DNA of 64,000 nucleotides from Amoebophrya sp. A120 (lineage: Eukaryota > Protista > Dinoflagellata). The stretch is taken from NCBI GenBank assembly GCA_905178155.1, contig CAJINV010000003.1, positions 7,460,601-7,524,600 on the forward strand. The letters are read 5' to 3'. Position numbers and translations under genes: made by a program. Of this stretch, positions 1 through 42,600 are shown in pieces (positions within the stretch are counted from its first letter, which is position 1; each line of letters begins with the position of its first letter). Below the pieces are notes generated by a model. The model was not told where the DNA came from. It saw only the letters and a program-made list of their open reading frames with translations, and searched no databases.

Positions 1-289
1 CTTGAGTTGCAATTTTTTCCATCGGCTATGACCATTCGCTTCTTTTGATGATAACGTCCACTACCTCCTGAGCACAGCACAAAGAGGAGATTTGACTTCG
101 GAAACTTTTTCGTTTCCCTTTTTCAAAAAAAAATCGATAAAAAAAAATACTCGAAAAAAAACAATAAGTGCGCACCAATGAGTATGCCGGTGAGCAAAAA
201 AAACTTCAAAACGTGTGATCTACCGAGTTTCATTTTATCAATCAATCTTTGATGTACTAGTGTTGACCTGTCAATCCACTATACTACCT

Positions 290-15625: not shown

Positions 15626-15764
15626 CTACTTCAAGAATAAGTCACTCTCACTCATCTATCTATCGAGCGCATGCGCAGTTCGCACTTCTGATAGTGAGAC
15701 ACCGCAGAAAACGGTAACTGCTGGACGCGTCAGTGGCAATTGAACGTGCGAATCTCATGGTGTA

Positions 15765-18700
15765 CTACGCTGTAGTTCTACTCCATTGGATACTGCGTTT
15801 TGGGGGTTCACTAGGTGGATGTTGGCAAAGAAACTGTTGCTGAGCAGCTCGCGCAGCTATCAAAGGGAAAAATCCCCCCTCCCCATATCGAAAAGGAACG
15901 CCTCAGAGAATTTGCGATGCTGATTTGTGACCACAAATATTGTCTGTCTTGCAAGAAAGCAACGGCAGAGGCTCCGCCCCATTATGCAGGAGGTTTGTAA
16001 TGCTGTTGGGCCTACAGCAGAGACGTTCATCATGCTAAGTGCTTAGGCCAAAACCTAAACCTCTCTACATTGGCATGATATGGGTCTGCAGTACTCTACT
16101 GCAAAACAAATCTGATTTGTGTACTGAAATCCAGCATCAGAAACTCCTTTTTGATATGGGGTGGGGGGATTTTTCCTTTTGATAGCAGCGTGCTCCGAGT
16201 TAGCCGGCGACGATCCCAGTCCGACACAAAAACCATCCGCAGTGTATCAAATGTAAAAGTGTCTGGGTCTGGAAGAGTGCATGTTTGTCATGCTTGTCTG
16301 GCATGACTCCCAAATCTGTCACGCACGTTACCCAAGAGCGCCACTTTTCTGTCATGCAGAAACGCAGTCTGTCATGCACAATAGGCAACACCTAGAAGCT
16401 CAGAAACTTGTCATGCATACCCGACTGCACCACATCAAAAACCTTTGCACCGTCGCCGCAAGCAGCTTCGGACGCAGGAGATCTAGGGTCAGAACCGCGA
16501 AAAAACATCGCGAGTATTTCTTCATCCCCGGGCACTTATGTTATCTTTACCTTACTTCTCGCTAACACTGTATGAGCTGCTGCAGACACACTGTGACAGG
16601 GAAAAACACAGGCGCCACAATAATCAACGCTCATTTATATCTAATATGCGGAAACTGGCAGGCACCTGTCGCACGAGGAAAATAGCAACAGGCGCGGGAA
16701 CAGAGTCCGAGGAGTTTTTGATCTACTCACATATAGACTGATGTTCGAAGACCAGCAACACTCGTACGGCGCGTCTCAGCTAGCTCCAACCGTGGGATGA
16801 GCACGCTATAATGACTATACAACGAAGGCGAGCTTCCAGGCCGTAAAACGATGCCGCGAGTGGAAACCTGCCAATCCATCCGCACTTCGCCTGCTTCGTG
16901 TCGCTCGCCTCGTCCGCGTAGACGCGATCTCAAGACTTCGCGGTCGGACTGTGCCGATTGGCAAAAGTGTGCCTATGATCTGCCGATTGGTATACGTTCG
17001 CTCTCGTTCCCGCTCTGCGTTGCTGCATGTCATGCTGAGCCAGCACTTGTGACCTCCTCATGATACGCCAGCCAGCATCACAAGTTTCCAGACCCAAACA
17101 TTTTTGCATTTCATACAGTGGTCGGTCTTGCAACAAGGTGCGAGCGAGTTGCGCTTTCCGCAGGAAAACACACTGCGTCAACTGCAACTCTTTCTCGACA
17201 TCCTCATCCGTAGCCTCCGCCTGATCGTCGTCTTCCGGCCCCAAACTAGGAGCACCTCCTGAAGAAAATCGGGATGCACGAGAACGACCCGAAACGCGAC
17301 CTCCACCTGCACGACCGGATAGTACAGCCTCAGGCCCAAGCGCCAACAAGAACGTAGCGCCGTTGGCGGCGGCGGTCCCGCGAAACAACCCGACGCGCGC
17401 TGCCCAAGTGTTGCGAGAGTTTTTGTTCGCGTTCGTGGCGACGTGCGAGAATTCCGCGCGCACGGACGACCATGGCGGCTCACCGGAAAAGGACAGCCCA
17501 AACGCCGCGTCCGAGTGGTGATCGAGACAGACCGCGTCGACGAGAGTTACGGGGCGAAGCGGCGATACTAGATACTGTGCCGCGCGCCGGCCGCGACCAC
17601 CAGCTGAAACCGCCAAAAGAAACTTCTCCAGATCCTCCGAAAATCGGCTCCAGTAAGCAAGTTGCCGCTTCTGCTCCGAAGATTCTCGCTTTGGGGAATT
17701 TATTGAAGATATTGTTGTACTAGATGTCTTTCTTGTTCCTACCCGCCTGCCACCCGCAGCACCAGAATTATGCGGTCTGCCCAGCCGCAACACCAAATGG
17801 AACACCCGCTCCCGGTCAGCACTCAAATAAAAATCCTGGATCAGATTCGTGCCCAACATGCTCCCTTCTCGCCCGGTGGACGTCCGCACCATCGTCCCAC
17901 CATGCCTCGCTTCCCGATTGTCGAGGAACTCTGCGATCCACTCGGCAAGCTGCTGCACATGCTGCACAACTTTTGCGTCGGAACTTCCAGCAGTCGCGGA
18001 AAGATCTACTCCCACTGTCTGTTGCGGAGACACGACCCCGCCAGGCTCAACATTCGCCGACGGTGGTACATCAACAGCGGTGCTGGCGGTCGTCGAAGAC
18101 ATCACGCTAAACATATCCAGTAGCGTCACCGCGAACGCTCGGTGGTGCTGGGCTTGTCCGAGCAACCGCGTCAACACGCGCCTCTCTCGCCGCTGGTGGG
18201 CGACGCGGGGTCGTAGCGATGTCGCCAACCGTTCCTGTCGGTCGGCCTCTTTCGCGCCAGCGGCAAGCTTTTTCTGCAGCGTTTGCTTTTCCACCAACAG
18301 CGTATTGCCCTCCTCCTCCGCGTCCGCCAAACGTTCCTCGCAGGCGGCAAGGAGGGCGCTCTTACGTGTCCATACCGAAGTAGACATCTTGGCGGGGGCG
18401 TCGGCATCTTCATGCTGTGCGTGTCCAGCTGAGGAAGTAGAGGCACCGAACTCGCCAGAAGATCCGGTCGTGGCAAACGGATTCAGATCAAAGTCAACAT
18501 GATATGCTTGCTCTTCGTCCCTGAACAGCTCGTCTTCCAAGGCTCCTCCCCGCTGGTCCTGTTCCGTTCGCTTGCGGGCGTGCTCCAAGCGCAGGGCGCG
18601 AAGCTCCTCCTCCTGACGGTAGAGATGCGAGGAGAAATCCTCCGCGAACGCCTGCATCACGCCCGAGCTTGCGCCCTTGAGAAAGATAAACAACGAAACA

Positions 18701-21250
18701 AATACGGCACCAGAGCGAATACGACCAGATTTTTTCGAGCTTTTTTATTTTTGGCAAGATTAAAATGTGATCACGAGAACAAAACGGTGGTGGAAATATG
18801 GGCTTTCATCAAATTCGATGGAAAAAGCAAAAACCAGCGGTCACAACTTGACCGAACAGAGAGAGCGCACCAATCCTAATTAACAAATCACCTGGCCAAG
18901 CGACCGAGGTTAGAAGTGACACGTAGTTCACAGTGAAAAAGTTGTGATAAGGTTCTATGATTAGTCCTGGAAAGGGTATGGTTAACGCTATCCAATCAAT
19001 GCACAAAGCGTCGGGTGCCCATTGCGATTGGTCAGGTTTAGAAGTCTCACTGCAAAAGAATTCGATGTACAAAAAGTATAACAAATTATTTCTTTCTCTT
19101 CATTAATTGATTCCAATCCAATGCTATTCATCCGCCCCCGGTTGCTTGGGCATTGATTTGATTCATTTTTCTGTACATTGCCATACGTTTTACTTGGGCC
19201 ATGAGCTTTCAGTACTCAGTTTTCACCTAAAGAAAATTTCCTTCGGCGCCAGAAAAACTCCAGCTGTAAACATCCTTTATCCCTCGGCTCCGTCTGGATC
19301 TAGGAACCGAGAATTCACGGCGCTTGCTGACAGCATGTGATTTTCCACGGACGCTTTTATACCTGATGATTTTTGACGAAGACTTTATTTCAATCTCTAT
19401 TTTTCAACACTCATGAGTTTACGTGGTGAGCTGCTGAAGAGAGACAAAAGAGAGAGAAGTGAACAACAGAACCATGGAAACACAAACAACATGAACATGC
19501 TCCCAAAAAAAAAACGGCGCCTCCGCCTCCGCACAGGGAGTACAAACAAATAAACAAGCGGTCGAGCCGTGACGCTTTTTTGAGCAACGTAGAGACCTTC
19601 AAAATGCGGATACCTTCTCTAACGTCCACCATGTCCGAGTTTAAGTTGTCGACCAAGTCACTGTTCTCTTTCAGATGCCCCTGTAGCTGTGCCAATTCTT
19701 TTTCCCCTCTTTTCCGCTCCTGTTTTATGAATGTTAAAAGTTTGTCGATCAGCCTTCTGCTTAATCAATTTTCATTTTGTATATGCTGTCTGTGGCGACT
19801 TCTGTCTTCTGTTGCGACAATGAGAATCTTATTATCCGTCTGCCAAGGATCCGGCTTGTTCTTTTCACACAACAAAACTACCGCAACACAAACACGTCTG
19901 GAAGAACCCGTATGAATTTCGCCGGAGCTTGCAAACCAAATCCATCGAAGTGACAAAGATCGCACGTCAATAAATGATCGTCGTAATAAACGAACAAAAC
20001 CCTACCTCCGCGAGGTCAGAGAGCTGCTGGGAGAGGCGAGCTAGCTGGTCGTCGAGCTTCGCCCTGTGCTCCAGCGTTTTGGTAAGTTCCGCATATTTTC
20101 GATCGTAATCCGCTGTCAGCGAGCTCTTCTCTTTCGACAGCGTTTGCTTCAGTTTTCGGTTCTCTGCGATCTGATTCTGCAAGACTAATGCAGGTACTTA
20201 AAAATCCGGTGATTGCGCGAGGATAGAAGGGAAGACCACACTGCACATAAACCAAACAAAAAAGACAGCTGCAGCTGCTCGCGTATTACTTGTCCGGTTT
20301 TTTCAATGATTTCTAGTTTGCATACTGCTCTATTCTAAATCCATAAACATTTCTGGCATGAAGACAAAATTTTTTGCGAGCGTTGCAAAAGCAAACCTGA
20401 AGCAGGAGCAGCGGCCATAGAAATAGTTGTCGAAAAGGACGAAAAGCGATGCAAAAACTGTAGCGGAGCGCAATCACCAGTAACCAATTGCATAGTATCT
20501 GTTTCTGCTGCAGCGCATGTTCGTAGTTAGCCTTGCTTTGCTGAAAGCGCTGCGCCAGCTCATTGTTGTATTTGTCTTCCATATTCTTCAACGTTTTTGT
20601 GCTTTCCTCGACCTGCTCCTGAAGCTTCATGGCCTGGTATATTTGAATGGTTGCCGCTTTTGCTTTTCTTACTACTAGGAGAGCCAAATAAAAACGCTGA
20701 TCTTGCTCGGACTAGTAAAAGTGTTTTCCGCTACACACGTTCACGTGCTCATGCCACACATCATGCCGATGCAAAGGTAGGTGACCGCTCCCCGCGCGGT
20801 ACGATTGTATTCTCTATATAGTTTATTTAATGTCTTCTCGTGCACAAAATAAAAATTGTTTACTCTTACCTCGTGCCTTAGGTGGTCGCATTGCGTCGTG
20901 ACGCGATCCAGTTCTCTTTTGTTCTTTACGTATTTGGATGTCCACTCGGAAAGGCTCTTGTCATAGAGCACTTTCGTGTTGGGATTTGCCCGTTCGTGAA
21001 TCCTGCTACTCGGCGTTTTCAGCATCTTCCAATCTTCGCACCGCTGACGCACTCCTCCGCCCGAAACGTTTTCCTCCGCTCGGTTGAGAGCTTCTGTGAA
21101 GATGGGTAACTGACGGCCTGGCCTTTTGTTTCAAGTTCAACTTCACGAGACGGAGAATCAATTGACGCGCAGATGGCCGAGTGGTGCCGGAGTTACTCTA
21201 CTTCCCTAGAAGGCAGCTTCCAAATCCTGGTCCATTTGCATCATAGTAGT
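15765..21250 (-). CDS. Large coiled-coil protein of unknown function (multi-exon)
   Basis: Heptad-rich minus ORFs at 20741-21052, 20313-20687, 19967-20182 and 19411-19695, plus the 587-aa ORF 16930-18693. The frame continues across the introners at 16245-17115 and 15858-16184 (LQDRPL|RMVFVSDWDRRRLTRSTL|RELLSNSFF). Confidence 0.55.
15858..16184. mobile_element. Introner (TATCAAA(A/G)GG family)
   Basis: TIR of about 40 bp (tatcaaagggaaaaatcccccctccccatatc); TSD gcagc; ends match those of 386-570. Confidence 0.9.
16245..17115. mobile_element. Introner (TATCAAATG family) carrying a nested 611-bp insert at 16417-17027
   Basis: TSD cagtg; the arms are the reverse complement of the 40918-41169 element; the nested insert is flanked by tgtcatgc at 16409-16416 and 17028-17035. 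Confidence 0.9.
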
Positions 21251-21664
21251 TCTTGAAGCTTCTAGTTTTGATGCAACGCATAAGAAGCACAAAACCTGTA
21301 ACTCAAAGCAAAATCAGAATTCAAAAACCCAAGGCGACATGGATCGCTAACTTGCGTCGCACGTGAGTATAATCGTAGCGTAACTGTACTACTTTCATCT
21401 CCGAGAGAGTTCGTTTTTCTCGTACTCACACGCAAAGGGTGCACTTCTCGCTCGGCTTTAGTGTGGCGGAATTGCGATGAAAACTCGATCACGTCTCATC
21501 CGCTTGGTTCTTCAGGAAACAACTCCTAGAGTCACCTCGCACCCCAAATCAGCAGGGGAATAAACGTGAACAAAACAAGACTACTGTCTTTAGATGAGGC
21601 AGCACGCTGCCGCCCTGGTGTGGCTGTGGCCTTCGTTGTGATACAATTAGAGCCCATGCCTCCA

Positions 21665-23679
21665 TCAGCTTCTATTCATCTTGCCGGAAATGATTTGTTG
21701 TAAGGCAATACTTCGAGCGTTTTGCGCAAATGCACGGACTCTCTCTGAAGCTTCATCGTGCTCTGTTTTTCTGTTTTCTGCTACTTCGGGCGCCATGGGC
21801 ACGGCTTTAAATGTCTGAAGTGTCCATTTATCAACCCCATACACCTGCGCTGACCCATGCCACGAGCACGGGTCTACGTTGCCCTTTGCGTCACGAGTAA
21901 AGAAAACCAGAAGCTTGCCTTGCTCTGGCCGTACAGCGAAGCCCCGCGTTGATGAACATGCGTCCGTATGTGCTAGCAGTTCTTTCGCGCGGACGCGTTT
22001 ACTAAGCGCCACGCAGGACGATGCACCAGGAATCTGTAGCTGTGGGTCTTGCTCCATGTCTTTCTTTCCGCGACACGAAATAATGCGGTGGGCGGAGGAT
22101 GTCATTTTTTTATCTAGAAGACAAGCCTGCTTTCGTTCTCGTTCTTCCTTTCTACACTGGTCCCTGAGTGTTGCCTTTGCCGACTCTTGGAGCGCTCGCA
22201 GGCATGTTTGCGCTTCTGCGAAGACTTCCGTTGCGCCACTGTCCACGGGCACGTCGGTGCTTTCGAAGCCCAAGGAAAGCAAGCGCTGTCCAAGTTCACG
22301 CTCGACCGGAAAAACGGTGTGCCCCATTATCCTGAGTAAAAACGTACCCACGCCAGAGTTGTAGTGCAGATTTGCAAAGACAGGAAGACTTGTAAGGCGC
22401 ATCCCCATGAGAGCCATTTCCAATCGCGTTTTGGAATTTGTGATGCTATGAACAGGATGAGCAGATGAATCTGTGATGCGGCTGCACTTGCTAACCTGCA
22501 CTACACTGCATAGTGCAACTTGTGATGCGTGACTCACAAAACTCCTAGGTTTGTGTTGCAAAATCCCCATCCTGACTCTGGTGTGGGTACGTTTTTACTC
22601 AGGATACCCATGCCAGTTTGTTCTGGTGCGTCTTCAACGTCCTCGACTGTGTTCAAATACAAAATCGCCGTGGCGAAGCGCCGAGATTCCTCGTTAAATG
22701 TGTCCACGTGGAGCCCGTTTTCCAGCAAGAATGTAGTCTGATCTCCCCAGAGTGGTGCCAGAGCTCCGCGTGTGACATCATTTCTCACTTGTAGTCCTGT
22801 GGTTCCATTTTTTCCCGCTCCTGTCATCAGCTGCCGCCTTGGTGTTAAGTTCAGCACGCACCGCGATTCCTCAGCATGGGACGGGCAGGACAAAAGTTCG
22901 CCGATGACGGCTTCGAATTTCCGGCACAAGGGTTCTGTCTCGATCTCGAACTCACCACGCAGTTTTCGTGAGGCTGGGAGCTTATACAGCCGTTTGAATA
23001 TGGAAGGCAAAAGTACACGTCGGTCGTATTTAGGCATGACATTTGTCTTAGACTAGACTAGGGTATTAAGACAAATGTCATGCCAGGCTCGGCAACATGT
23101 GTGCAGAACTACTACTTGTTGCCTGGCATTTTTGAAGTGGCCGACATATGAGATCGAGCTCCAGGCTCCAATTGCTTGAGCGGCCTTCTGGTTCTTTTGG
23201 GTAAATAAGTATTGACACTGTTGCAACAGACAAACTTTCGACAAGGTTGCATTTTTCTCGACTCGGATAATGAAAGTCTTGTACCCATAAACAATGCCAT
23301 TGGTCGCGTCCAGGACCGTGCGCAGGGACGACGAGCACTGTATGCTGCATGCTTGGTCGCCTGTGTCTCCTTGCCCCAATGCAGAATTCGGAAGATGTCC
23401 TTGCGAGGACCGCGTTTTGCTATCACCGTCCGTTCTTGGAAAAGCAGATTTGCTCGAGATTTCGGTGGGAAGTAGATCGCTAGATGCGCCGCCACTCAGT
23501 GCTGCGTTAGCGTCCGCACCAGCCGCGATGAGCGCCGCGCACTCGGCTTTTGAGGCGAAGTTGTGCCAAACCAACGCCAGCGGCTCCTCCGCAAGCAGCT
23601 CCCACATAAAGAGCGGAAGGGCGCCAATCCATAGTGAAAACAGGGCTAACTCTTCTTTTACTCCGTAGATTCTTGTCAC
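21665..23679 (-). CDS. Prolyl-4-hydroxylase-like 2-oxoglutarate/Fe(II) dioxygenase
   Basis: EPLALVWHNFASKAECAALI; HxD motif in LHVDTFNEESRRFATAILYLN; TGMG|HTVFP after introner removal; VRPEQGKLLVFF...DPCSWHGSAQVYGVDKW supplies the distal His and the 2OG-binding Lys. Confidence 0.8.
22328..22606. mobile_element. Introner (TATCC family) in the oxygenase gene
   Basis: Near-perfect TIR of about 33 bp (tatcctgagtaaaaacgtacccacgccagagt); TSD cccat; restores GMG|HTVFP. Confidence 0.93.
23033..23084. repeat. Perfect 18-bp stem hairpin within an oxygenase intron
   Basis: ggcatgacatttgtctta ... taagacaaatgtcatgcc. Confidence 0.85.
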
Positions 23680-24335
23680 ATGACAAGTTCACCTCGCCGA
23701 ACGAGCTTGAACAGGCTGCACTACGATCGCGCATATTTCCGCAGTATCAGACGAGCGCATTCACATTCTTCCAATTTTGATTTTATGTTTTCCTTTTCCT
23801 CGTGTTCCTTCAGTTTCATCCGTGCGCCTTGAAGAAGTTTCTGATGCACTACTACTCAGGGCCGCTCGTCGCACTCGACTACACATAGTGCTGACGGTAG
23901 TGTAGAAACAGCTCGCTGAACGTGAACTTCTCTACATGCTACAGCTCAACCGCGAAACTCGTTGCGTTGCTCTGATTAGTTCATTTGAAGTACCTTGAAG
24001 CGCTCGCGCTCGAAAAAGCGGGCTACAGTAGAAACCGCCACTGTTGTTCTCCTGGTACTTTCCAAAGTCACTTAAGCTATTACCCTCAACTTTTAGGTTT
24101 ATCCATTCCGTTGTTACATAGTTCATCTGATCTGTTCATTCCTTTGTCCTAGATTATAACGGGGACGATAGTAATTTGAATCGGAAATATATGCTTACGG
24201 TTCTCACCTTCGCCCAAACACATTGGGACAAGTCGTTTTCGCTATGTTTGCGAAGTTTGTGAACAAGAAGTAATAGAGAGTAAAAGTAGCGACTAAATAA
24301 ACTAGTCCGTCGTCGTGTGTCTAGAACTTTGCCAC

Positions 24336-26324
24336 TCAGTTCACCCGCACACTAACCCCAGACTTCCAGCTTACTGTCACGCTCTTGGGGGGCTTGTCAG
24401 AGACCTGCTCCTCTTCCGTAGTCTCCTCCTCTTCCCGCTCCTCCACCTGGGTAAAGCTCCCACACAACTGGTTCCCGTCGGGAAAGACCCAAACGCCTGC
24501 GGTCAAAGGGTCCAGAAGTTCAATGTCGTACTCTTACGCAAAGTGGTCAAAGCCTAACTCAATATCATGATCATCAATCCGAATTTTTATGCAGAGTCAC
24601 AACTTCGACGGCGACGTGGAGGTCAGTCCGAACGCCTTGCTAGTATGTTTCAGATGCTCATTTTTTCTCATGAACGTGAGCAGGCGCATCGAATCAATGA
24701 AGGACAATTGTACCACTTCCTATTGGCTGATTCCACTTGAAGGATCCCACGTACTTCACGCCGTTCAATAGTGTCCACGTTCCCTGCACAAACATCCCAT
24801 CGGCCCACCTCAGAAAAAGACAACAAGACCGATAGGTATCTCTACGTGTCACTTCTGCAGCTTGACATGAGAGATCAACAGCCGGCTCGTTATGAAAACA
24901 TTCAGGCTGTTGCTCTTAGCATGAACAGACGAGAACCAAAAGCAAAAACAATCAAATATTTAGAAGTACTTTCCTGATAAGGTAGACCCGTCCCGGGTGT
25001 ATCGGTACACACCCTTGCCGTGCTTCTTCCCGTTCTTCCAGGCGCCGGAATAGGTATCTCCATTCACGTACTTGAAAGTACCCCCGCCTTCCCGCTTGTT
25101 CTCGGCCCACCTTTGAGGAAGCGTCTAGCATTGATAAGAACAGTAATTCTACCTACTATGAAATATTTATACATGCAAGATCAAAAGTATTTTCTCGATT
25201 CACATCAGACTAATGTACATATTTCATTTTTCATAAAAACAATATTTATTACTCTCCGTGGTATTCACCCCCTCTCGCGGGTGCGGATTCCTCGTCTTCT
25301 CGCTATGAGAGTGCACAGCCGCCCCATCTACTACCTCAATTGTGATGCTGACGAGCCTCCGCTACCAAGCCCGATTAGCCGGGGAGGACACTACCACCTT
25401 TGTTTGTAATGCGAAACAAAGAAGTCGGCCATCAAGACGGGGCACTACGCCATAAATATGTCTCAAAACCGCACAACTCCTGGAGACAACACACTATCAA
25501 AACCAATCTGTATCTAACACATCATTGCATGACAAGCGGTAGTCGGGGACCTGTTACTAAGTAAAAACCGGCCTCCGGAACAGCACCAGAAAAGTGCGCT
25601 TCCAGAAAAGTGTGCTTGAATTAGGTTGGAAATGATGATCTGTTGTTGTTTCTTTTGCGGCCCATGTGCTTTAAATGAGGAGGAGGGCGAGTTGTGCACT
25701 CTCCTACTGGTGGTTCCGCGTATGCTGAACCGTAGCAAAATTTTCCCATACCGTTGCGCTTGTTTTCCAGGTATCCGCCAACATACCTTTTATTTTGTAT
25801 AAGAGGTCGCTGATGATTTAAATTTATTCGCTCCTCCGAGGCGGCAGCCAGAAAATAGAAATACTCAAAATCGCCGTCCTCCAAGAACTATTGAGACGAA
25901 AATAAATTCCGTTCCTTTGGCGCGGGGGTAACAAAAGGAGCAACAACGTGAGCACAAAGAAGAATCTTGTGGTCTTGCGCAATCTTCAGAAGATACGAAA
26001 AAGTGTGCTAGTACTTGTCGCCGTTGTTGGAGAAGGTGTAGGATCCGGTACCATCCCGCCTACCGGCCAAGAAGGTTCCATCGTAGATATCACCGTTCAA
26101 ATACCTTGTGTCGGTTCCAGAAACTTGAATGCAAACACGACACCCATATGAAAGGTAAAAAATATGATTGAGGAGAAGGCAACTGATGAACTTGTATCAA
26201 TTATCAGAAATCGAAGCCTGTACGTGGCCACTGCCGCACCGTCAAAATGCTTCGAAGTGTCCCTCACATCTCCATCCTCCTTTACACGGAGCTGATACTT
26301 GGGCTCCGTGTCTTCATCCGCCAT
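24336..26324 (-). CDS. MORN-repeat protein (radial-spoke-head-1-like)
   Basis: NGDIYDGTFLAGRRDGTGSYTFSNNGDKYVGGYLENKRNGMGKFCY...GGEYHG..WAENKREGGGTFKYVNGDTYSGAWKNGKKHGKGVYRY...GVWVFPDGNQLCGSF, followed by an acidic tail. Stop TGA at 24336. Confidence 0.8.
25304..25706. mobile_element. Introner (TATGAG family) in the MORN gene
   Basis: tatgagagtgcaca / tgtgcactctccta; degenerate TSD ctcgc/ctggt; restores AEPP|EDEES. Confidence 0.8.
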
Positions 26325-28942: not shown

Positions 28943-29188
28943 ATAGTCTTGTCTGTATAAAATCGCATTAGTCCTACGCTCACATTCATGTCCACGTGCA
29001 ATCGCAACCGCAAGGCCTTTGTTGCGTTGCAAATTATTCCACACGAAATAGAAGGCACTGCGAGCTTACTCTGGTTGGTGTTGGTCGGTGCATTCTTACA
29101 AAAAATATGAGAATCAAGGAGACATCTGGATGGAAAAAATCAACACATTTAAGAGGCGTACGTGCTAGCGCACGAGGTCGCCTTGTTA

Positions 29189-32098
29189 CTAGCTGTCTGT
29201 GAAAAACGGGTGACAGAGAGCCCGTTTTGCCGTTAGACGCCTCGCCTATCCCGAGTAAAACCGTCCGCACCCCAAACGTGTCATACAAATCTGCAAGCCT
29301 CAAATGTTTCTCATGCACAGGGTAAAATAAATGAGTAGCATTTTCTAACGCCGTCAGGCAGTTTCTTCTTGGCGCGCGAGAATAAGTATATCGGTCTGCG
29401 CTGCAGCTGCACTAGTTCCACATGATTACACTGCGAGCCCAAACCTGACTTCATGCGCGACAGCCGAAACTCGTTGGCTTGTGAGGAAGCGTTCGCATCT
29501 GGACTCTGGGGCGGGGACGTTTTTACAGAGGATATCGCTGGATCGTATTTCATCAGGTGCTCGAGGAGGTCACAGCAGGATAGCCCGACCTGGGGAAAAT
29601 CAAGTTGTCCTATGCTTCTTGGCATGCACCAGTGTATCGGTTAGGCAATGACCGACTGCCGACAAAAATTTTTAACAAGTACGTATACATCTTCGTAGGC
29701 AGCAAAGCCACAGCGGTCTTTTTACCTTTCCTGCGAACGAACGAGCAGGAGAAGCTGAATCTGAAACAATCATTAAAACGCACCCATCGAGTGAAACCGG
29801 TGAGCCGGCGAAGTAAAAAAATGTATCGATGCTCAGCAGAACAAAAATACGCAAAACTCTGATGTTGAAGTACCTTCGACCCAAGCTCCCGAATATCAGG
29901 CCAGAGCTTTTTTCGCCACCTCGGGAACGTGTCTTGCTTGAAATCCTTCAGGTGCTCGAGTCCCGGCCATTCTTGAAAACTTGGCGTGCCCAGCTTCTGA
30001 AAAATCTTGAATATCGTATCGATCTCGCAATCCCCTGTAAAGTAGAGTGTGTGATGTGCCGTCAAGTGCGTACAAGAGATCGATACTCTTTTTGCAGGCT
30101 ATAAATTTGCACAGCTGATTACTTTAAACATAATGAGACGTCCAGGAGGGCAATTCGAATCTGTTCGATCGAATGTGTAGAGTGCCTATAAAAATATCCC
30201 TCCGCGAGTATTCGACCCAAGCGTAAGCTCAAGCTGCCAATGCTGCCACATCATTAGGTACATCAAAATCAGAACAGTACAGAAATACAAAATCAAAAAG
30301 ACACTTATAAAAGTCAATACCCATAAATAGAGCGGCACCGCAGCCCATTTCGCCAAGACGCTTATGCAACGGCAAAAACGCAACATCTCAGTTTCAATGC
30401 AGTTTATTTCTGAACGTACTTTGTTCTTTTTACAACTACTTTCATTGCATTTATTTCGGAGAAGAGAGCGGAATCCGGATCGTGTAATTGAGGCATGCTG
30501 TTCAAAAATCGATGGTTGGTGTGCAGCCACTTCATCTTCGACACAAATGCACGCGTTGCGAGACAACCCAGTGACTACGTCGTGATTGCGCTGTTGTTCG
30601 TTCCTCGGCGTAAATGCATCCAGTACTCCAAATATCGACTGGGAGCGCATACTCTTGCTGTCCAAGCAAGATCTCTGGCGCTCGATACCTGGATATGCAG
30701 CGAAAAAGCAGTGCAAATGCAGGCGACGACGCCACAGAGCATGACTACGTGGCACGCGTTTTTCTGTGTTTTGCCGCTTGCATTTCAAAGTAAGCTTCGA
30801 GACCAAGAAAAAAAGAACAAGCGATCGAATCAGAGCCAAACGAAACTTGATATTGTTTGTATGTAGCTGCGAACATAATAAAAATCTTCTCTACCAGACG
30901 GTGACCACCTCGTGGGTGTATTTCGGTATTGGCAGCGTGAAAGCCCGCGCGAGACCGAAATCAGCGATTTTGAGTATTGGTGGGTTATCCACTGTGACGA
31001 GCAGATTCTGTGGCTTCAAATCACGATGGAGGATCCGATGGTTGTGGCAAAAGTCCAGGCCCGACAGGAGCTGGTATCCAAAATCCCGTACCTGACGCGA
31101 ACTCAACGCTCCCCCGTTTTTCTTCATGAACTTCTTCAGGTCGGACTCCACAAACTCAAATACCAGCATCACCTGCAAGGTCGTGTGTGTCGCGTGATTT
31201 AGAAGGTTTTTTTAGCTTTAGCGTTATCTGCTTTCATGACCTACTTCAGCAGTGTACAAACAGATGTTCTAGGTGACTCTACCACTGGCTAGTATACCTA
31301 GCCTGACAGATTTCGTGGGACGGAAGATCGCTTTTGCGCGCGCCTTGATCATTCTGGAGCGTCAAGTCCCTAAGTAGTAGAGCGGCCATGAAAAAGAAGG
31401 GTTGTATCTTTTAAATAAATACTCTTTTTACCTTCTTTTGCGTGCAGAAAACGTCGCGGAGGTGCACAACATTTTTGTGCGGAAGCTCCTTTAGTATACT
31501 GATCTCACGGATGGCTGTCGACGGTATGCCTTCCTCTTCGTCGTGGAGCTTCATCTTTTTCATCGCGAGGATTTCGTTCGTGACATTGTCTTTGACTTTG
31601 TACACCTCGCCATAGGTTCCTTCTCCCAGCAGCTTGACTTCCACTTTCTCGTACCTCGCACTCAGCATCCTGAGAAAAAACGTCCTCGTCCCACAGTTGT
31701 ACTATACCTACCTAGAAGCGCTACACAAGAAACCCGCAAGCTCCAGGAGACAAATTTGAGCCCGCAGCTTTGCTATCGCGGTCGGCGAAGGCTACCAAGG
31801 CACATAGATTGGAGCATGAAAACTTCTGAAACACAAGTAGGAACTGCCTCCCCCTTTCATGGAGTTGGAGAAGGAGATTGATCAGCCGCATGAGAAAGAT
31901 TCCGCGTGAAATGATTAGGATTAGCATGCAAATTTGCGTGACAAATCTGGGGTGTAGCTTTTGCTATTCATTGAAGATGTAGAACAACAAATCATAGCAC
32001 AGACAAAAGGATGTAAGGACGGGGACGTTTTTACCCAGGATACTGGGGCTTGCATCCCCACCAGCTCCCGCGCCGCTGCTGGCGCTGCTCGTCTCCAT
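29189..32098 (-). CDS. CDK1: Cyclin-dependent kinase, cdc2/CDK1-2 type (PSTAIRE)
   Basis: METSS...SPS|[97 protein letters not shown]|[14 protein letters not shown]. Confidence 0.93.
29247..29534. mobile_element. Introner (TATCC family) in CDK
   Basis: TSD tcgcc/tcgct; restores YDPA|RRLTAK. Confidence 0.88.
31666..32042. mobile_element. Introner (TATCC family) in the first exon of CDK
   Basis: catcctgagaaaaaacgtcctcgtcc / ggacggggacgtttttacccaggata; TSD ctcag/ctggg; joins the ATG at 32098 to the kinase frame. Confidence 0.82.
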
Positions 32099-33699: not shown

Positions 33700-35270
33700 G
33701 ACACTAATCCCAACGCTGACCACTTTATCTCACATCGCCGAGTGCGAGTCTTCCTACAACTCACTACACATTTATGTAAACTCGTCGACGAGGAATCGCG
33801 AGGAGACTTCAACCCTATCAAGAAGTTGAGGAGGTTCCAATCAACGTATTGTTTGCCAACAAGATGAGAAGTTTGTGATTGCGACCACTTGATGCCATCT
33901 CTTCCTGTTCCATACAAAATAATGTAGCATCGATAAGCGGTTTTGGTTTACGAACACCATAATTTCAAGACCCGGGCCGGGGCCATGGCGCTCGGCAGCA
34001 CACGCCGGAGCCATACATCCTTTACCAACCAAATGTGGCCTGAAGGCGAAAACCATTGACATCGAAGAAGAAGGCGAAAACCATTGACATCGAAGAAGTC
34101 AAGTACATGTATTTACCGACTTTACAACTACGAATGATCACAGAGAATTCCATTGTCATCAAGTGTGGAGCGATTGCAGTGCTCTCCCTTCTGCACCAAT
34201 TCATCCACAAATCCGTTTCGATCTCGGTCCCGCACCACAGCTGTAGTACGAAGAATATAAATCTCTGAAAGTAATATTAATCTATATTCAGATTTACCGA
34301 CGGACCTACATAAATTACAGAAAAACCGTAAGCAATTACTTACAAAACGGATCGGGGCTTCGGACATCCATCGGAAGCGTGTGGGTGTGGTCAGCACAAA
34401 AGTAATACTGAAATGCGAAAGGACAAAGCCTTCCTCCAGCAAGACATCTAGCATCTCGGCGGATCATTCTTTTGTGACACTGGCTTCCGTGCCTGTAGTC
34501 TAGTAGACTTTTTTCTCTAGATGAAAACGTGAGGAAGGCATCAATTCGTCAGATTTAAACAAATGAAATAAATGCTCTGCTAAAATCGGTCTAACTAACC
34601 TCATCCCGCGCCTCTTAAATAGCGCTGTATCTTTTATTCTCGGGCTTGACAAGGTTCTTGGCGGAAACGAAACAGGAGCACTCTACTAAGAATAGACTGT
34701 ATTCTCTGGTACTAGGGCAAGTAGAAGCAGTGTGCACCTATTCATCTTGGAGGGTTAAGAGACTGCATTTTCCGATGGGCTCAGCAACCATGTTCGTGTT
34801 CGTGTAGTGTAAAGTATACTTTGCTTTAGTTGTTGTTTTATGCGATGCTTACGGAGCCTTGGCTTTGGAATCGTGGTTGCACAGCGAAGCCTTTTTTCTA
34901 GCACCTCGGCAGAACGCAGGAGCGTGCGCACGAAGATGCAGACCGGTTTCTTTTTTCTCGATGCTGCCGGTGATCTCAGGAATGAAATCCCAAAAATCAA
35001 GGGTGTAAGTACTCGCAATCAAGAGCTGCACATTCCTGCCAGCCCATCATAATCTTCCGGCTCCGTAGTTATTGTGTCTCTTACAGCGACGTCGGAAAAG
35101 CAGGCAAAATCTCTTTGATGTTTCGACAATCAGAAGAGTCAGTTCGAATTTTTCTAGTTCCTGCTTGGGCAGCCCAGTGCGAGCCGTGGCGTAGGTGGCC
35201 TTGCTGTAAACCATGCAACGCTTCTAGGATTCTTCGAATAAGCAAGAGCAGTGCTGCCGCACCACCACCA
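33700..35270 (-). CDS. Possible fragmented gene, not resolved
   Basis: Short GC-richer minus-strand segments ending in GTAAG donors (about 34345 and 34853); no family recognised. Confidence 0.2.
34042..34097. repeat. Perfect 28-bp tandem duplication
   Basis: gaaggcgaaaaccattgacatcgaagaa, two copies. Confidence 0.9.
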
Positions 35271-36600
35271 GCTTCTGACGTTACAATAAATTTCTGTGTC
35301 AGTGGTTGTTGGCTGTTGCATGTCGCATTATTTTCTACAAGTCGCAAACACTTACGAAAATACAAAAACCGTCCTAATAAAAAATCGTGCTTTTTGTGGT
35401 GAGTTTTCGCTGTCGATTAATGCTGTACTGTTCGCAAGATGTTGAAACAAGATCAAGAACCAGAGCACGATTTACCTCTTTAAAATTACTTGTTTCGCGG
35501 ACTTCGATGAAACGTGGTGGTTGCTGTTTATTCTCCAACTTAATTTCCAGCCCAAGAAACTAGTTGTGAAAACGTCTGGCTCATTTATATGTATTCTTGC
35601 AAACCACTGCTAGGTACTACCAGGCTCTATTCTCCGGCCAAAACGAAAAGCTACAAGCTCTTAACTTACAGCAGAAAAAGAACTGGTACAAAACTTCTTC
35701 AGGGTCAAAATCTGTGTGCTTTACGAAGCGCTACGTTCTACGACGCGATTTCGAAATCGGACGCATGTTGCAGAGCAGAGATCTAGTATTTGGAAGCAGA
35801 GGCAAAAAAAATTTGGGAAAGTGCAACACCGACAGCTGCAGAGATGAGACGCACCTACGCTAGTACAACAGCAAAAGGCATCTACATCTAAATCGCAACA
35901 AAAATATCATCGAATCTATCGGCTTTATTACTTTTCTCATTGGATTTATGGTGTTCTTTAGATGTATTCCTGCGGCCCGACTTTGCACCACACGCACGCA
36001 GTCTTGGTATAGTAGATAGGTCTAGAACTCGGAGATGATGGGAATTACTATAAATAGGTGTTTTTGGCGTACCCAGGTACGCTGTAGGCTTCGTTAGATC
36101 TTACACGCTCATCTTCTGATATTGATGATTATAATCTGTTCGACTCTAAGTCTTAGATTGTCCCGCGATCTTCTGATATTAATGTGGAGGAAAGCCGAGA
36201 CGTCAGGTGGTTCTCCTCGTCTCTATGTATTTGCTAGTGTTTTTAACGTATCCAACGTGGAGGCACCATAGGGATGACCACAGCAACATGAAGTGCGTCT
36301 TGTGTGTGTCTCTGTGTGTGAAGAATGCCGCTCCAATCGAGTGCTCAGTGGTAGCAAGGGGATACTGGCGACGTCTTGTGGTTCAGCGATTCCATCAAAA
36401 ATGACGTCGATGCAGCTGGGGGTGCGCTGAAGGAAGACAGATTATCCCAGCAAAGCTCTCAGACCCAGTCAAAAGTTTAGATAAAGATACAGGACGCAGA
36501 AGATGAAGACATATACTACATGTGCGTAGTCTTTTTGTTTTTTCACGTGTTCTTGCGCCGCGGCGTCCTTCGTCGGCTTTACTCGCTTTTAATAAAATAC

Positions 36601-39600
36601 TTATTGTGGTCTGACGTCACAAAAAACAGCTTTGACTGGACTGAAAGCTTTGCAGAGAGCATACAGTTGCGATGTGTTGGTGTGATCGTACGCATGATGC
36701 TGTGGCTGTTGAACAAGATGATGGCTCTGCTGCTGATGATGCGCCTGCAGTGTGGACGACGGCATCTGATCCACGGCCACGAAAGCCGGTGGAGCACCAG
36801 CGCCAGGCATCAACGTGTTCCCTGTACCAGTAGTGTTACCGGCCGAAGATGTGATAGCCCGTGCCGCGGTCGCACCAGTATACTGGTGGTATGCGTGCTC
36901 CGCTTGAGATCCGAGTACCGCGGATGTGCCGGTGGTACCACAATTACCGTGCATATCCGCGGGGGCGTAAGCCGCGGACGTTGATGTATTTGCGTAAGAA
37001 CCGCCTCCAGCGCTCATCGTGCCTGCGTGAGGACCACAAACACCTGCTCCCGTCGCTCCGTTTAGAGCACATAGACCTGCACCCGTTACTCCGCTGTTCT
37101 GGAGGTAGTTCACTTGCTGATGTTGATTCTGCTGCGCCACCGAAGATTTGCTCCTTATGGTGCAACAAACAGAAGTCTTGCTGTGTTGCGAGCAATTCTT
37201 GTTCTATCAATACCTCATATAAATCGCGCAACTGCACTGCACCACGAGAGCCGGACGTCTGTTTTACTATTACTTTTCCGACCGCGTAAGTTGATTAAAG
37301 TGCAGCGCAGAAACACAGTCCCAATGTTCATACAGAAGCACCAGCACAGGAGCTTGGGAACTAAATACTTAAAATCAGAAAATGCAGTGGTGAGGCAGAA
37401 ATGTTGCGAGCCGTCATCTTTACAATATGTAGATACACTACGTCGGTGCAAATTTCGCTTCGACTTGCAGGTAAAAGGATTTTGATAGGATAGTGGGAGC
37501 GGTGCAGCTACTGCCCAGGTGGTGCTGTCCTGCCTGCTGGGCTGTGGCGTGATGTTGCGGGCCGGCGGTTGCCTGCGTGGACCCGCCCATCCCCTGGAAT
37601 ACCCCCTCCGCGGAAAAATGCTGGAGCCGCTCTCGCGCCCGGCTGTCACGCTTGCGATCGATGGCCTTTAGTAGTGTCTGGTAAGTTTTTGCGCTCAACA
37701 AACACGCCCGAAAGTGCTTCTTGGCTGCTGCCAGCTCCACGAATTCCAGCGCCATAGTCAACTTATTTTGATGCGCGGCCGCCACCGCGAGCGCGGAGTA
37801 ATGGTAACCCTCAGGACGAAACCCCTCCTGGTCCATCTGCTGCAAAACACTCTTTCCGCGAACCAAGTCCCCATGGTTGGCAAGCGCATGCACAAAGGCA
37901 GAGTACACCACACGCAACAAGTATACCCGAGAAATTATATGCCCCTGCCACAGTCGCGCGCTGCATCCCCGCAGGTAAAGAATCCATTAAAACTCGTACG
38001 ACCAAAATGTATCTGCAAAAGCAGCTGCGTCGCTATATTTTATTCTTGATAAGATTCAAATATTGAATTGCTTCCATCGAACTCCTGCGAACGGAGTTTT
38101 TCAACCTGCTTGTTCCCTCCACATTTCACGACTTATTTCACCCTTTCTAATAAATATCCCTGGGAAAAACGACGTGAGGAGTCCTTTATGCAAGTGCGAA
38201 ATACGACCTAGGCAGAGAACAACAATAACTTCATGTACGCTGCATGTTTGCCTCAACCGGCAGCAAAAAACAGTCTCCGCGGGCGGAACTCTTGTTGTAC
38301 GCAGCGGCTCATTCCGGGGCGCGAACGATTCGTGCCGCGTTCTACAAAGCAGGGGCATTTTAACTTGTGGGTGATAGCGGGTCCTTATCGTTCTGGCTGC
38401 TGGTTTTGGCGCAGTTCTTCGTGTAATAGTCCCCGTACTCGTCGTATGTGCTGTGCTGGTGGTGGTACTTGCCATGGTACCCGTGCCGGCCGCCTTTGCC
38501 CTGATTCTGCTTCAGCTGCTCGAGCACGCCGTAGGCCTTATGGATGTCGATGGGGACGTAGAGCTTTACCAGGATGCTCCACGTTATCGCATTCGGGTAC
38601 ACTCGCTTCTCCGTCATCTCCGCCAGGAGACGCTCCGCAATCTCCACCTTGCCCTCCTTCGCACATCCATCGCTATGAGAGCGCACAGCTCCGCCTCCCC
38701 CTTACTTCAACTACTGGGAGATGAAGGGGGGCATCATGATATTTATTAGAGGAGCAGCAGCGAGAAAAAGAATTGGCGCTATCAACAAAAAATTCGAACG
38801 GTGCTGACAGACAAAGACTCCTGACAGTGACAGTACAGTTGGTATAAAATTATAGGATGCATCACGGAAGGGAAGCAGGTGCACTTGTGCGCTCTACACT
38901 TTCATAGTCCAGCAGGGAGTTGTAAGTGACCGGGTCTATGCATTGCAAATATATCTGGGTCTGGAAGGTTGCGCGCGTTCTTGGTCATGCAGCGTTTGGA
39001 TGGCGCGGAAGCGGATAGCCTGGAATGCACGAAAGACCATTCGAACTTGTGCTCGTCAGCGTCAGGCCCCTTGATCCCTGTCCCGTGTGAGAAATTGAAA
39101 TTCGCTATGTATGATTTGCGTAGGAATGGACAACTTTTGCCACTCATGCGTCGTGCCGAGCGAGTTTCTACTATTTGGAAAAGTAGTTGCATGTCCTGTC
39201 TCTGTGATTCAGAGTTTGCATGAACAAATACAACAAGTTCGCACCCTTCCAAACCTGGACACATTTATTGCAGTGAGTAGGGTCCGCGGCAAAGCCATTC
39301 TGTTCCATCATCTGGAACGTTTCAAGGGCCTTGTCCAGCGCGCCCCCCTGGGCGTACCCCTTGGCAATAATGGAGTAAGTGCAGCCATTGGGACTCAGCT
39401 CGTAGGCCTTGATCATCTGCAGGATCTCCTGGAAGTGGTGGTGGCCACCGGTCCGCGCCACCGAGTCGATCACGGAGTTGAAGGTGAGAATCCCCGGGGG
39501 TAGGTTGAGCTCCTGGATCTGGTACAGGGCCTGCATGGCCTTCTCCGGCTTGTTCAAGCGCCCGTACATCTTGATCTTCAGGCTCATGCTGATGATCGAG

Positions 39601-42600
39601 TGCGGAATGTTCATGGCCTCCATCTCCTCGAAAAGTTCCTCTGCTTTGCGGTCTTCCGACATCTTCAAACACAGGTCAATCAGAGCGCCGAAAAGCACCG
39701 CGTTCAGTGGCAAATTGTCCAGCTCGATTCGCTGCTTCACCTGGAGAGTCAAAATAAGCAAAGCCTTGTTTATTAGCAGCCTTCTTCGTTACGATTACGG
39801 TTTATTACATACGATAGTACACTACGTATTTTGATTCTCGACGCTCGAAATCATGATGATGATCATCATATCGGAGAATAAACACGTGCCGGATGGAATA
39901 TCAAAATTTCGTCACATCACCTCTAGCACCGTTAGGCTCTTTCCGTTCACGTTGACGTTGTGAAGAGCTCTTATATTTTCTCCCTCTACATAATCCGAAT
40001 TTCCGTATGCCGTGGCCGAGCGTGAGCGAATGATCACAGTATCTATTAATAAAGACAATTTATTTGAAGAAGAGCTCTACCCGGAAAGCAGACTCAAGAT
40101 CGCGCTGCTGGGAATAGCATTTGATGAGGAGGCCATATTCGAACTGCGAGAACTTCAGCAGGTCTCGGCTAAGCTCGAAAATTTGTTCCGCCAGGTCAGG
40201 GCGTATCCCAGAGACAAAAGCTGAACCTAGTACATCATCTCAATTCTTCCGTGCATCAAGATGAGTCTGTCATTGGCTGACAACATCACATCGTGTAAAA
40301 GAAGTTTTCTGGTGCGTATACATGAATATTCATTTTCGCATATAGTTACGCTAGCTTTTTTCCCTGGGATAGGGCGCCCGCAATGCGCACAAGCGTCGAG
40401 CAAAGCGCGGACGAGTACTCCGTCGATGCGGCTCCCATTCTGCTATCCTGTGTAAAAACGTCCCCACCCCAGAGTTGTTATGCTAAAGGAATTGCAGCAC
40501 ACTTTGCCCCCCCCTCTGCCCCAGGCCGCAGATGGCTTGACACGCAGGGGGGGTAGGTCAGGCGGACACCAAAGTGCCATCGCCATCATCTCCCGGCCGC
40601 TAACCCCAGAGTTGTTATGCAAATTTGCAATGACAGGAGCGCTTGTAATGCGCTTCCCCATGACAGGCATTTCTAATCGAGTTTTGGCATTTGTAATGCT
40701 GCAAACAGGATAAGCAGATGGATTTCAGATGCGGATGTCCTTGCTAACATGCACTACACTGCGGACTGCAACTTGTCACGCGTGGCTCCCAAAACTTCTG
40801 GATTTGTGTTGCTAAGTTCCCAACTTGACTATGGGGTGGGGACGTTTTTACATATGATATCTGCTGTAGCTTCCACACGTCGTTGAACGCCCGCTCCAGT
40901 ACCTCTTGCTTGACGCTTATCAAATGTAAAAATGTCTGGGTCTGGAAACTTGTGATGCTGGGTGGCGTCTCATGATGAGGCTACAAATGCTGGCTCAGCA
41001 TGACAAGTTTCTGAGCTCCTAGGTGTTGCCTATTCTGCATGACAAACTGCGCTTCTGCATCACAGAAAAACGGAGCTCTTGGGTAACGTGCATGACAGAT
41101 TTAAGAGTCATGCCAGACAAGCATGACAGACATGAATTCTTCCAGACCCAGACATTTTTGCATTTGATAACGCTGAAGTGTCCGCCATTGTTATAGCTGC
41201 GGTTGTGCTGCCCGTATCCGCCGCCTGCCCCCGCGTACGAATTGTGATTGTTCCATTTATTGTTGTGCTGGCCCTTCCCCCCTCCACCTCCATTATTTGC
41301 GTACCAGCCGCTCGCTCCCGCGGAAGAGGAAGATTGCCATTGCGAGGACTGTCCCCAGTTTGAAGAAGCCCCTCCGGAAGATGATGAGGCTGGAGTGTTG
41401 TATTGCTCCCACTGGTTCGTGTTGGCGTTCCAGACCTGCTGATTCTGGTGTTGAACAACACTGGAAGCATTGTTCGTCCCGGCAGTGCCGGGGTTGGTGC
41501 CGAACACCGAGGGTCCATAGTCTTTCATCTGCTTGATGGCCGAGATCAGGCTCGTGTAGGTCGCACAGTCGGGGTGTACGTTGAGAGACTGCATCTCGGA
41601 GACCAGCTGCCACGCTCGAGCGAACTGGTTCAGCTGCACGCAGGTGTGCACCAGCGTGTTGTAGGTGACCACGTTGGGCTGCACTGCGTTGCGTCGCATT
41701 TCGTCCAGAATGTTGAAGGCGCTGTCCGAGTCCCGCTCCATCGCGTATCAAACAAAAAAGTGCCTTAACGTTTTGAACAGTTTTCAAAGATTGCAGTCAT
41801 CGAGGAGATCATGGTGTCAAATTTTGCCTAAACATGATGCAAGATGTTGCTATGCAATACAAATTTTCTTTTTCGCGCTCTGTTTTCTAGTCGTGCATCA
41901 CTACATGCCAACTCCCGTTAAAACGCTTTTTTGGTTGATATCGCGTAGGCACGAATCACCGTGTTGTAGGTCACGCAGTCGGGCTCCAAACCGTCGTCCC
42001 GCATTTGGGTGTACAGGGAAATCGCCTTCCGCGGACGGAAATTCACGATGCAGGCATCTTATCCTGTGCGAAAACGTGGTGCCCACCCCGTAGCCAGCCT
42101 GGCATTGCTGGTAACTTTGATTTATACAACTTAAGGAGTAGTTATGGGTATGGCTGTAGAAGTTGCGCATGACAAGCCTAGATACGGAGCATTGCGGTTG
42201 CAGTGAAGTTTAATTATTGCAGCTGCGTCAATACTCGCCTTTCTGATATTGCTTCGTAAAATCCCAATATACTGGGCATTTGAATTTACACGTTTTTACA
42301 CAGGGTACGTCGATCAGAGAATTCATCATGAAGCTGTCACAGCTTTTCGCCTCCCGGTAGAGGAAAAAAACGCCAAAGGCAAAGTGGAGACACTGCAAGT
42401 GCCCCGCACTGCGGATCAGGATTGTGGACGACGCGGCAAGTGGAAGCTTCTCTTTGGTGTGTTTTGACTCCAACGGCCGCTTATGCATTGCAAAATCTTC
42501 ATCGGATCTTTAGTATTAGGTTGCATTTTTACGATGACGAAAGTTCTCAGGAAAAAGCAACTGCAACTTGGAACCGCTCTTGAAAGTAGATGATGAGGTT

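What the first reader, a model, noticed from the sequence alone, without database searches (positions are those of the whole stretch)
16245..41169. The same introner family sits in opposite orientations in two minus-strand genes
Seen: the arms of 16245-17115 are the reverse complement of 40918-41169 (tatcaaatg..gtctgggtctggaaga..catg..tgtcatgcttgtctggcatgactc..aaatctgtca.gcacgttacccaagagc). Both host genes are on the minus strand and both frames are restored by removal. Inference: excision cannot depend on a strand-specific branch point or polypyrimidine tract. It more likely reads the terminal stem or symmetric motifs, which is unlike spliceosomal recognition.
Basis: partly seen in the sequence, partly recalled or inferred. 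Interest (0 to 1): 0.8.

Follow-up and report, generated by a model that had tools for sequence, protein, structure and literature searches.

The report
Orientation-blind Amoebophrya-type transposon introns
Two copies of an already published kind of hairpin-ended jumping intron from a marine parasite sit back-to-front in two genes and both are missing from likely RNA; the flip is ordinary because both ends read the same either way, and the cut likely falls at one fixed, direction-dependent position read by a relaxed spliceosome.

Summary
Observation confirmed. B (40918-41169) is the reverse complement of A's two arms (91% and 90%). Both hosts are minus-strand. A is skipped in 4 of 4 RNA-like runs from one sample. 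B's removal is shown by length arithmetic on one contig. The elements match the published TAT...ATA introners of Amoebophrya A120 (PMC7789003). In 153 further loci, family orientation is about 1:1 to the predicted host strand (8:5 strict, 4 uncalled).

The 30-nt inverted ends present the same 5' and 3' sequence in either orientation (28/30 and 29/30), including a U-run and a branch-like A. Either-orientation introners are also reported in another dinoflagellate. Only strand-specific signals in the interior are excluded.

More telling: five junctions with decayed target duplications share one cut, 1 nt before TAT and 4 nt after ATA. Terminal changes spare U+2 and A+3, the positions of canonical GUA. 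A relaxed spliceosome is likely (0.5); a stem-cutting nuclease/ligase is the rival (0.33). Earlier notes of this scan found the same register on other pieces of this genome.

The parts
16245..17115 (.). Copy A: 871-nt TAT...ATA element; short arm 5' in host sense
   Evidence: skipped with one TSD in 4 of 4 RNA-like runs
16240..16244 (.). Left 5-nt TSD of A
17116..17120 (.). Right 5-nt TSD of A
16245..16274 (.). 30-nt terminal inverted repeat of A (host 3' arm)
17086..17115 (.). 30-nt terminal inverted repeat of A (host 5' arm)
16245..16416 (.). Long arm shared with B; holds five subterminal 8-nt boxes
16417..17027 (.). 611-nt interior of A absent from B, between two same-sense boxes (16409, 17028); no coding or RNA family
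17028..17115 (.). Short arm shared with B
16241..17116 (-). Predicted intron A in the -1/+4 register (GT..CT); register inferred from neighbouring junctions
14514..18657 (-). Host gene of A: 806-aa unannotated protein with four non-canonical introns
40918..41169 (.). Copy B: 252-nt TAT...ATA element; long arm 5' in host sense
   Evidence: removal by length arithmetic
40913..40917 (.). Left 5-nt TSD of B
41170..41174 (.). Right 5-nt TSD of B
40914..41170 (-). Predicted intron B in the -1/+4 register (TT..CG); register inferred
37441..43488 (-). Host gene of B: PPR protein (span of Pfam-hit exons; the gene extends further)
15524..15793 (-). Non-canonical intron with decayed TSD that fixes the cut: 1 nt before TAT, 4 nt after ATA
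   Evidence: (both=0, 4 of 4 runs)
20183..20495 (-). Second register-fixing intron; 3' arm ends ATT instead of ATA
   Evidence: (both=0, 4 of 4 runs)
15167..15411 (-). Intron allowing registers 0 or -1 only
22995..23270 (-). Intron allowing registers -1 to -5 (seen in 1 of 4 runs)
36439..36664 (-). Intron allowing registers +1 to -3 (X3 record 12)
15858..16184 (.). Neighbouring introner of another family in the host gene of A, skipped with one TSD
22328..22606 (.). Introner of the 40444-40859 family, same host-sense orientation, skipped with one TSD
40444..40859 (.). Introner next to B in the PPR gene

Best explanation
A and B are two copies of one MITE-like, TAT...ATA non-canonical intron family of the Amoebophrya A120 type that sit in opposite orientations in two minus-strand genes and are missing from RNA-like contigs, and they are likely removed by a relaxed, U1-less major spliceosome that reads only the inverted ends.

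Steps:
(1) Inferred: a transposase not found here inserts the element in either orientation and duplicates 5 nt. The duplication itself is shown by an empty site in a local duplicate.
(2) Shown: the 30-nt TIR gives the pre-mRNA the same two ends in either orientation, and the ends are predicted to pair in both senses.
(3) Shown for five neighbouring junctions and inferred for A and B: the intron starts 1 nt before TAT and ends 4 nt after ATA, so one TSD copy is rebuilt exactly.
(4) Inferred: N-U-A at +1..+3 serves as the donor (canonical introns here start G-U-A), the A at -7 likely serves as branch nucleotide, and the acceptor is set by distance from the stem, with no G or AG check.
For: Splicing in both orientations. 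About 1:1 orientation in other loci: 8:5 with 4 uncalled of 17 (strict) and 17:12 with 13 uncalled of 42 (broad); 316 same vs 303 opposite pairs. Strand model: minus scored higher for 20 of 20 window elements, 16 by the margin used, and Pfam agreed in 4 of 4 loci with hits.

Register: two junctions force -1/+4 and the other three intersect only there. All 6 canonical introns examined start GTA. Changes in the terminal triplet: 5' arm 0 at TIR positions 1-2 and 8 at position 3; 3' arm 5 and 1; Fisher p 0.003 (a sixth 3' position-1 change at 31666-32042 was not in the test). G-U mismatches are not favoured over A-C in the stems (99 vs 116). Phase-0 excess under this register (66/32/41, p 0.001).

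Literature: a near-complete spliceosome without detectable U1 (PMC7789003 section 10); spliceosomal precedent in Fritillaria as summarised in PMC11282704 section 6.
Against: No lariat, branch or knock-down data. No excess of G at +1 (46 vs 41.9 expected) or of AG at the 3' end (14 vs 9.7) among 139 elements: a spliceosome blind to both ends has no close precedent that I read. A 30-bp stem (mean pair probability about 0.9) would hide the donor and branch regions unless unwound. The branch-like pentamer is degenerate, one called element (L003) lacks the A at -7, and the asymmetry test on loci alone is not significant (p 0.14). The A excess at intron -2 (56 vs 38.7, p 0.0017) is matched by a position with no known role (0.39 A just upstream of the TSD). 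The RNA evidence is contigs of one sample whose RNA nature is a guess, and it carries no strand. Splicing of the 153-locus copies was not tested, and their strands are model calls.
Confidence: 0.5

Rival explanations
1. A dedicated non-spliceosomal endonuclease plus ligase recognises the terminal stem and makes a staggered cut (1 nt before, 4 nt after), as proposed for euglenid nonconventional introns.
For: Terminal bases are free. The stem is predicted in both senses. U1 was not found. Euglena uses a similar fixed-spacer code, N3-CDG...CH'G-N5-6, with machinery suggested to be distinct from the spliceosome (abstract, passages and section 7 of PMC12501133).
Against: The positions kept on the 5' arm are the U and A of canonical GUA. 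Changes that break pairing (C-A, A-C) are tolerated, and wobble pairs are not favoured. A sequence-specific nuclease could still do this, so the rival is weakened but not excluded.
Confidence: 0.33
2. A mixed route: the stem is recognised by a new adaptor protein that replaces U1/U2AF and hands the ends to a spliceosome core that uses another branch site inside the element.
For: Farhat et al. suggest recruitment of a new subunit (section 16). A second yUnAy-like site lies at -14 in the host sense of both A and B.
Against: The -14 site is missing in the flipped sense of both copies, while orientation is about 1:1.
Confidence: 0.12
3. The skips are reverse-transcriptase template switches across hairpins at direct repeats, or DNA-level excision, and not splicing.
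For: A hairpin plus direct repeat is the classic setting for such artefacts (own knowledge). The RNA label of X3-X6 is a guess.
Against: Retained A and B carry stops in all three frames (12/8/14 and 2/3/4). Junctions with no shared letters are still cleanly joined in 4 of 4 runs. The same contigs skip GT-AG introns. DNA-like contigs of X1 run through neighbouring elements and into B's ends.
Confidence: 0.05

Closest known systems
Introner elements / non-canonical introns of Amoebophrya sp. A120 (Farhat et al. 2021, PMC7789003; sections 10, 11, 12, 16, passages and supplement legends read)
   Same: TAT + 7 nt + AAA inverted ends, 3-5-nt direct repeats (5 bp in the Fig. S19 legend), non-GT-AG borders, about 250 nt, repeated families, co-oriented genes, mix with canonical introns.
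   Different: The paper leaves the border 'variable/unknown' (Fig. 3 legend). My searches of its text for strand/orientation found only gene-block orientation. The 1:1 orientation and the -1/+4 cut are not stated in what I could read; figures were not visible.
Either-orientation introners of Polarella glacialis and Aureococcus (10.1101/2020.10.14.339549, passages; Aureococcus only as cited there)
   Same: [quoted passage not shown]
   Different: They recruit GT/GC/GA donors and AG acceptors from element or TSD, with a bias to one orientation. Here neither end is required and most families show no bias.
Nonconventional introns of Euglena (PMC12501133 abstract, passages, section 7; PMC11282704 section 6)
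   Same: Paired ends at a fixed spacer from the cuts, longer on the 3' side; no GT-AG; likely MITE origin.
   Different: CAG/CTG motif with 3 and 5-6 nt spacers, and excised as circles. Here TAT/ATA with 1 and 4 nt spacers, a 30-bp stem, and an unknown excised form.
Non-canonical MITE-derived introns of Fritillaria borealis (as summarised in PMC11282704 section 6 and passages of 10.1101/2025.08.15.670264; the original paper was not read)
   Same: TIR/TSD transposons removed as introns without GT-AG, attributed to an altered U2 spliceosome.
   Different: They have preferred borders (AG-AC, AG-AT); here the terminal dinucleotides follow the random target sequence.

Membership tests
Amoebophrya A120-type introner (IE) | IR starts TAT, about 7 variable nt, then at least 3 A | tested here: met
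   both ends of A and B vs section 11
Amoebophrya A120-type introner (IE) | Direct repeat of 3-5 nt at the borders | tested here: met
   5-nt TSD on A and B; 191 of 225 elements in the loci
Amoebophrya A120-type introner (IE) | Removed from transcripts without GT-AG | tested here: met
   A direct, B by arithmetic, no canonical register; one sample, RNA label guessed
Amoebophrya A120-type introner (IE) | Repeated family | tested here: met
   17 full-length copies of B at 87-98% among the top hits; 17 with interior score >=150
Amoebophrya A120-type introner (IE) | Predicted terminal hairpin | tested here: met
   mean pair probability 0.88-0.96 over 30 pairs in both senses
Amoebophrya A120-type introner (IE) | Belongs to one of the 1954 published A120 families | not testable with these tools
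MITE (non-autonomous TIR DNA transposon) | TIR, TSD made at insertion, no coding capacity | tested here: met
   empty site with a single 5-mer for element 4963-5171; no Pfam hit at cut-off in 8 ORFs of A
MITE (non-autonomous TIR DNA transposon) | Cognate autonomous transposase | not testable with these tools
   no whole genome held
Canonical U2 intron | GT/GC donor and AG acceptor | tested here: not met
   0 of 6 registers for A and for B
Canonical U2 intron | Lariat at a branch adenosine | not testable with these tools
   only a degenerate motif at -7 in both senses
Euglenid nonconventional intron | N3-CDG ... CH'G-N5-6 code | tested here: not met
   in the -1/+4 register the ends are N-TAT ... 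ATA-N4; it may still work alike
Euglenid nonconventional intron | Excised as a full-length circle | not testable with these tools
   no raw reads cover the locus

The most novel reading that the evidence does not exclude
This parasite has a second mRNA-splicing machine that is not the spliceosome: a hairpin-measuring nuclease-ligase that cuts 1 nt before and 4 nt after any TAT...ATA stem, is blind to orientation and to all four border bases, and so makes tens of thousands of random transposon insertions harmless, convergently with euglenids.
Probability: 0.3. Interest if true: 0.85.

Novelty: already known. Interest (0 to 1): 0.42.

Why it matters
The element class is published, but how it is spliced is open. 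Orientation independence doubles the share of insertions that become harmless introns, which helps explain the spread. It confines all required signals to about 30 nt at each end. The fixed -1/+4 cut and the kept U+2, A+3 and A-7 give exact positions for a lariat test and for reporter mutations, which would separate a border-blind spliceosome from a new enzyme. The flip itself is expected for a TIR element and does not decide between them.

Tried and rejected
It is not genome-wide.

Sequencing runs: no RNA holder on record was listed. Laying X1 with the RNA-like run swamped the joint table for B. X1's very high depth over B is not a copy number, and X1 may be the window's source.

Searches that found nothing: viral contigs gave 0 matches to the TIR. 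A's interior had no blast hit in the 153 loci, no Pfam hit at cut-off and no Rfam hit. Whether B is a deletion derivative of a longer parent or A carries a nested insert is unresolved; loose ends at 16476 favour a longer parent.

Tests that were not significant or were set aside: enrichment of G+1, AG or AGG, and TSD mismatch position (8/2/2/3/2). In the strand validation two of the 20 window elements were entered one base off, one lies in a seed gene, three have no independent strand truth, and none is plus-strand. In the terminal-triplet tally, 4 of 13 odd loci had no strand call and 1 doubtful pair (L039) was dropped.

Literature: the Aureococcus paper (id recalled) is not held. The orientation-phrase search gave nothing relevant. 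Claims of 'not in print' rest on searches and text finds 9, 30, 31, 36, 61, 68, 69. Figures of PMC7789003 (Fig. 3, S19-S25) could not be seen and may show the register; supplements of the bioRxiv papers were not seen.
Full report
1. Observation. A (16245-17115, 871 nt) and B (40918-41169, 252 nt) both start TAT, end ATA and are flanked by a perfect 5-nt direct repeat. B is the reverse complement of A's first 172 nt (91%) and last 88 nt (90%) (E 4e-63 and 9e-27). The two arms overlap by an 8-nt box that recurs five times in the long arm. With the 30-nt TIRs cut off, the interiors align only in opposite sense (214 vs 21). A TIR+TSD scan gave 14 hits against 0-1 in five shuffles.

2. Hosts and removal. 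A lies in a minus-strand gene: the RNA-supported exons give 806 aa on minus and 17-21 stops per plus frame. B lies between PPR exons on minus, and removing each of four neighbouring elements with one TSD gives a continuous PPR-like frame. Four RNA-like contig sets (X3-X6; one sample, RNA label guessed) skip 16240-17115 exactly, in 4 of 4 runs, and also skip four GT-AG introns of the minus strand. For B no joint row was shown. X3 record 12 stops at 41170 and has 240 letters up to 39738, which equals the exon model (53+67+118+2) and cannot hold B. Retained, A and B have stops in every frame. No register of either copy gives GT/GC-AG.

3. Identity. Farhat et al. 2021 (PMC7789003; sections 10-12 and 16, passages and supplement legends read) describe Amoebophrya A120 introners starting TAT + 7 nt + AAA, with 3-5-nt direct repeats, unknown exact borders and no detectable U1. 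The window's elements fit every feature I could test. The organism is inferred from this match alone.

4. Orientation beyond two copies. They hold 225 distinct elements, 191 with a perfect 5-nt TSD. A codon model called the host strand for 163 of 225. On the window it favoured minus for 20 of 20 elements (16 by the margin of 8), and it agreed with Pfam in 4 of 4 loci that had hits among 150 ORFs (two plus, two minus). The A/B family is 8 B-like to 5 A-like (4 uncalled of 17; p 0.58) and 17:12 with looser members (13 uncalled of 42; p 0.46). Families of ten or more split 16:13, 8:10, 9:7 (with A and B), 7:8, 6:5 and 7:3; one family of eight is 8:0. These copies sit in predicted coding frames; their splicing was not tested.

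5. What the flip does and does not show. In host sense, A and B share 28 of the first 30 and 29 of the last 30 nt, and the stem is predicted in both senses. Any signal within 30 nt of the ends is therefore present either way, including a U-run and a yUnAy-like pentamer with its A at -7 (consensus recalled, degenerate). Canonical introns here lack a pyrimidine tract anyway (0.37-0.60 Y in six introns). Either-orientation introners are reported in P. glacialis and, by citation, in Aureococcus (passages), and one introner survey searched for opposite-orientation pairs as an expected case (PMC9860276 passages). The flip excludes only strand-specific signals in the interior.

6. The cut. Where the TSD has decayed, the junction fixes the register. 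Introns 15524-15793 and 20183-20495 (no shared letters; 4 of 4 runs) start 1 nt before TAT and end 4 nt after the 3' triplet. Three more junctions allow {0,-1}, {-1..-5} and {+1..-3}, which meet only at -1. All five are in minus-strand genes; for A and B the register is inferred. It puts U at +2 and A at +3, as in the GTA that starts all six canonical introns examined. Among elements with a changed terminal triplet, the 5' arm changes only at position 3 (8 cases), while the 3' arm changes mostly at positions 1-2 (5 vs 1) (Fisher p 0.003; loci alone p 0.14; 4 uncalled and 1 doubtful pair left out). G-U pairs are not favoured over A-C (99 vs 116). Against a spliceosome: there is no excess of G at +1 or AG at the end, and only 9 of 139 elements could be canonical in any register. 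A excess at -2 and phase-0 excess are weak hints.

7. Mechanism. Most likely (0.5) is a relaxed U1-less spliceosome that takes N-U-A as donor and the A at -7 as branch, and sets the acceptor by distance from the stem; all of this is inferred. The main rival (0.33) is a stem-measuring nuclease-ligase as suggested for Euglena, whose code also has fixed, unequal spacers (PMC12501133 abstract, passages and section 7). Diplonemid work leaves the same alternatives open (PMC12621601 passages). A new adaptor with an internal branch site gets 0.12. A template-switch artefact or DNA excision gets 0.05.

8. Prior notes and novelty. I had the register before looking. Earlier notes of this scan report the same 1+4 cut, the kept UA and the A at -7 on other pieces of this genome; they are unchecked AI notes and not independent support. 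The element class is published. The 1:1 orientation count and the register were not found in the texts searched, though figures could not be seen.

Noticed in passing
window 15858-16184 family; L004, L005, L039, L053, L056 (2), L078: One family has 8 of 8 called copies in the same host-sense orientation (p 0.008, one of 16 families). A diverged relative at 386-570 is flipped (score 63 vs 16). It may carry an orientation-dependent interior signal, or this may be chance.
   Followed up: partly
window 4924-5227 and 6202-6290: Local duplicate in which one copy holds element 4963-5171 and the other is an empty site with a single 5-mer, showing that the TSD is made at insertion.
   Followed up: yes
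L063:970-1228 and 1401-1659: Two relatives of the A/B family in opposite orientations, 172 nt apart, within one predicted minus-strand frame (interior score 68 opposite vs 16 same).
   Followed up: partly
L066:967-1228: A family relative splits an RNA polymerase Rpb1 domain 5 match (profile 1-24 and 24-78), so it likely must be removed precisely.
   Followed up: partly
window 45733-48507: 2.8-kb element with 120-nt arms that are 99% complementary and an interior of tandem repeats; its flanks do not form a 5-nt TSD.
   Followed up: no
window 19363-19613: A canonical GT-AG intron begins like an introner end (G then TATCC); it may be an old introner.
   Followed up: no
window 14311-21297: X6 record 16 joins A's host gene to the upstream, more deeply covered gene; this is either read-through or one gene.
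   Followed up: no
window 1-8500: Minus-strand protein kinase gene (Pfam Pkinase) interrupted by several TAT-type elements, one starting TAC in host sense (386-570).
   Followed up: partly
window 36123-36168: A 45-nt stretch drew hundreds of raw reads from X9 and X10 whose flanks differ, so it is a repeat expressed elsewhere.
   Followed up: no
window 60043-60456: Tandem repeats of about 129 nt.
   Followed up: no
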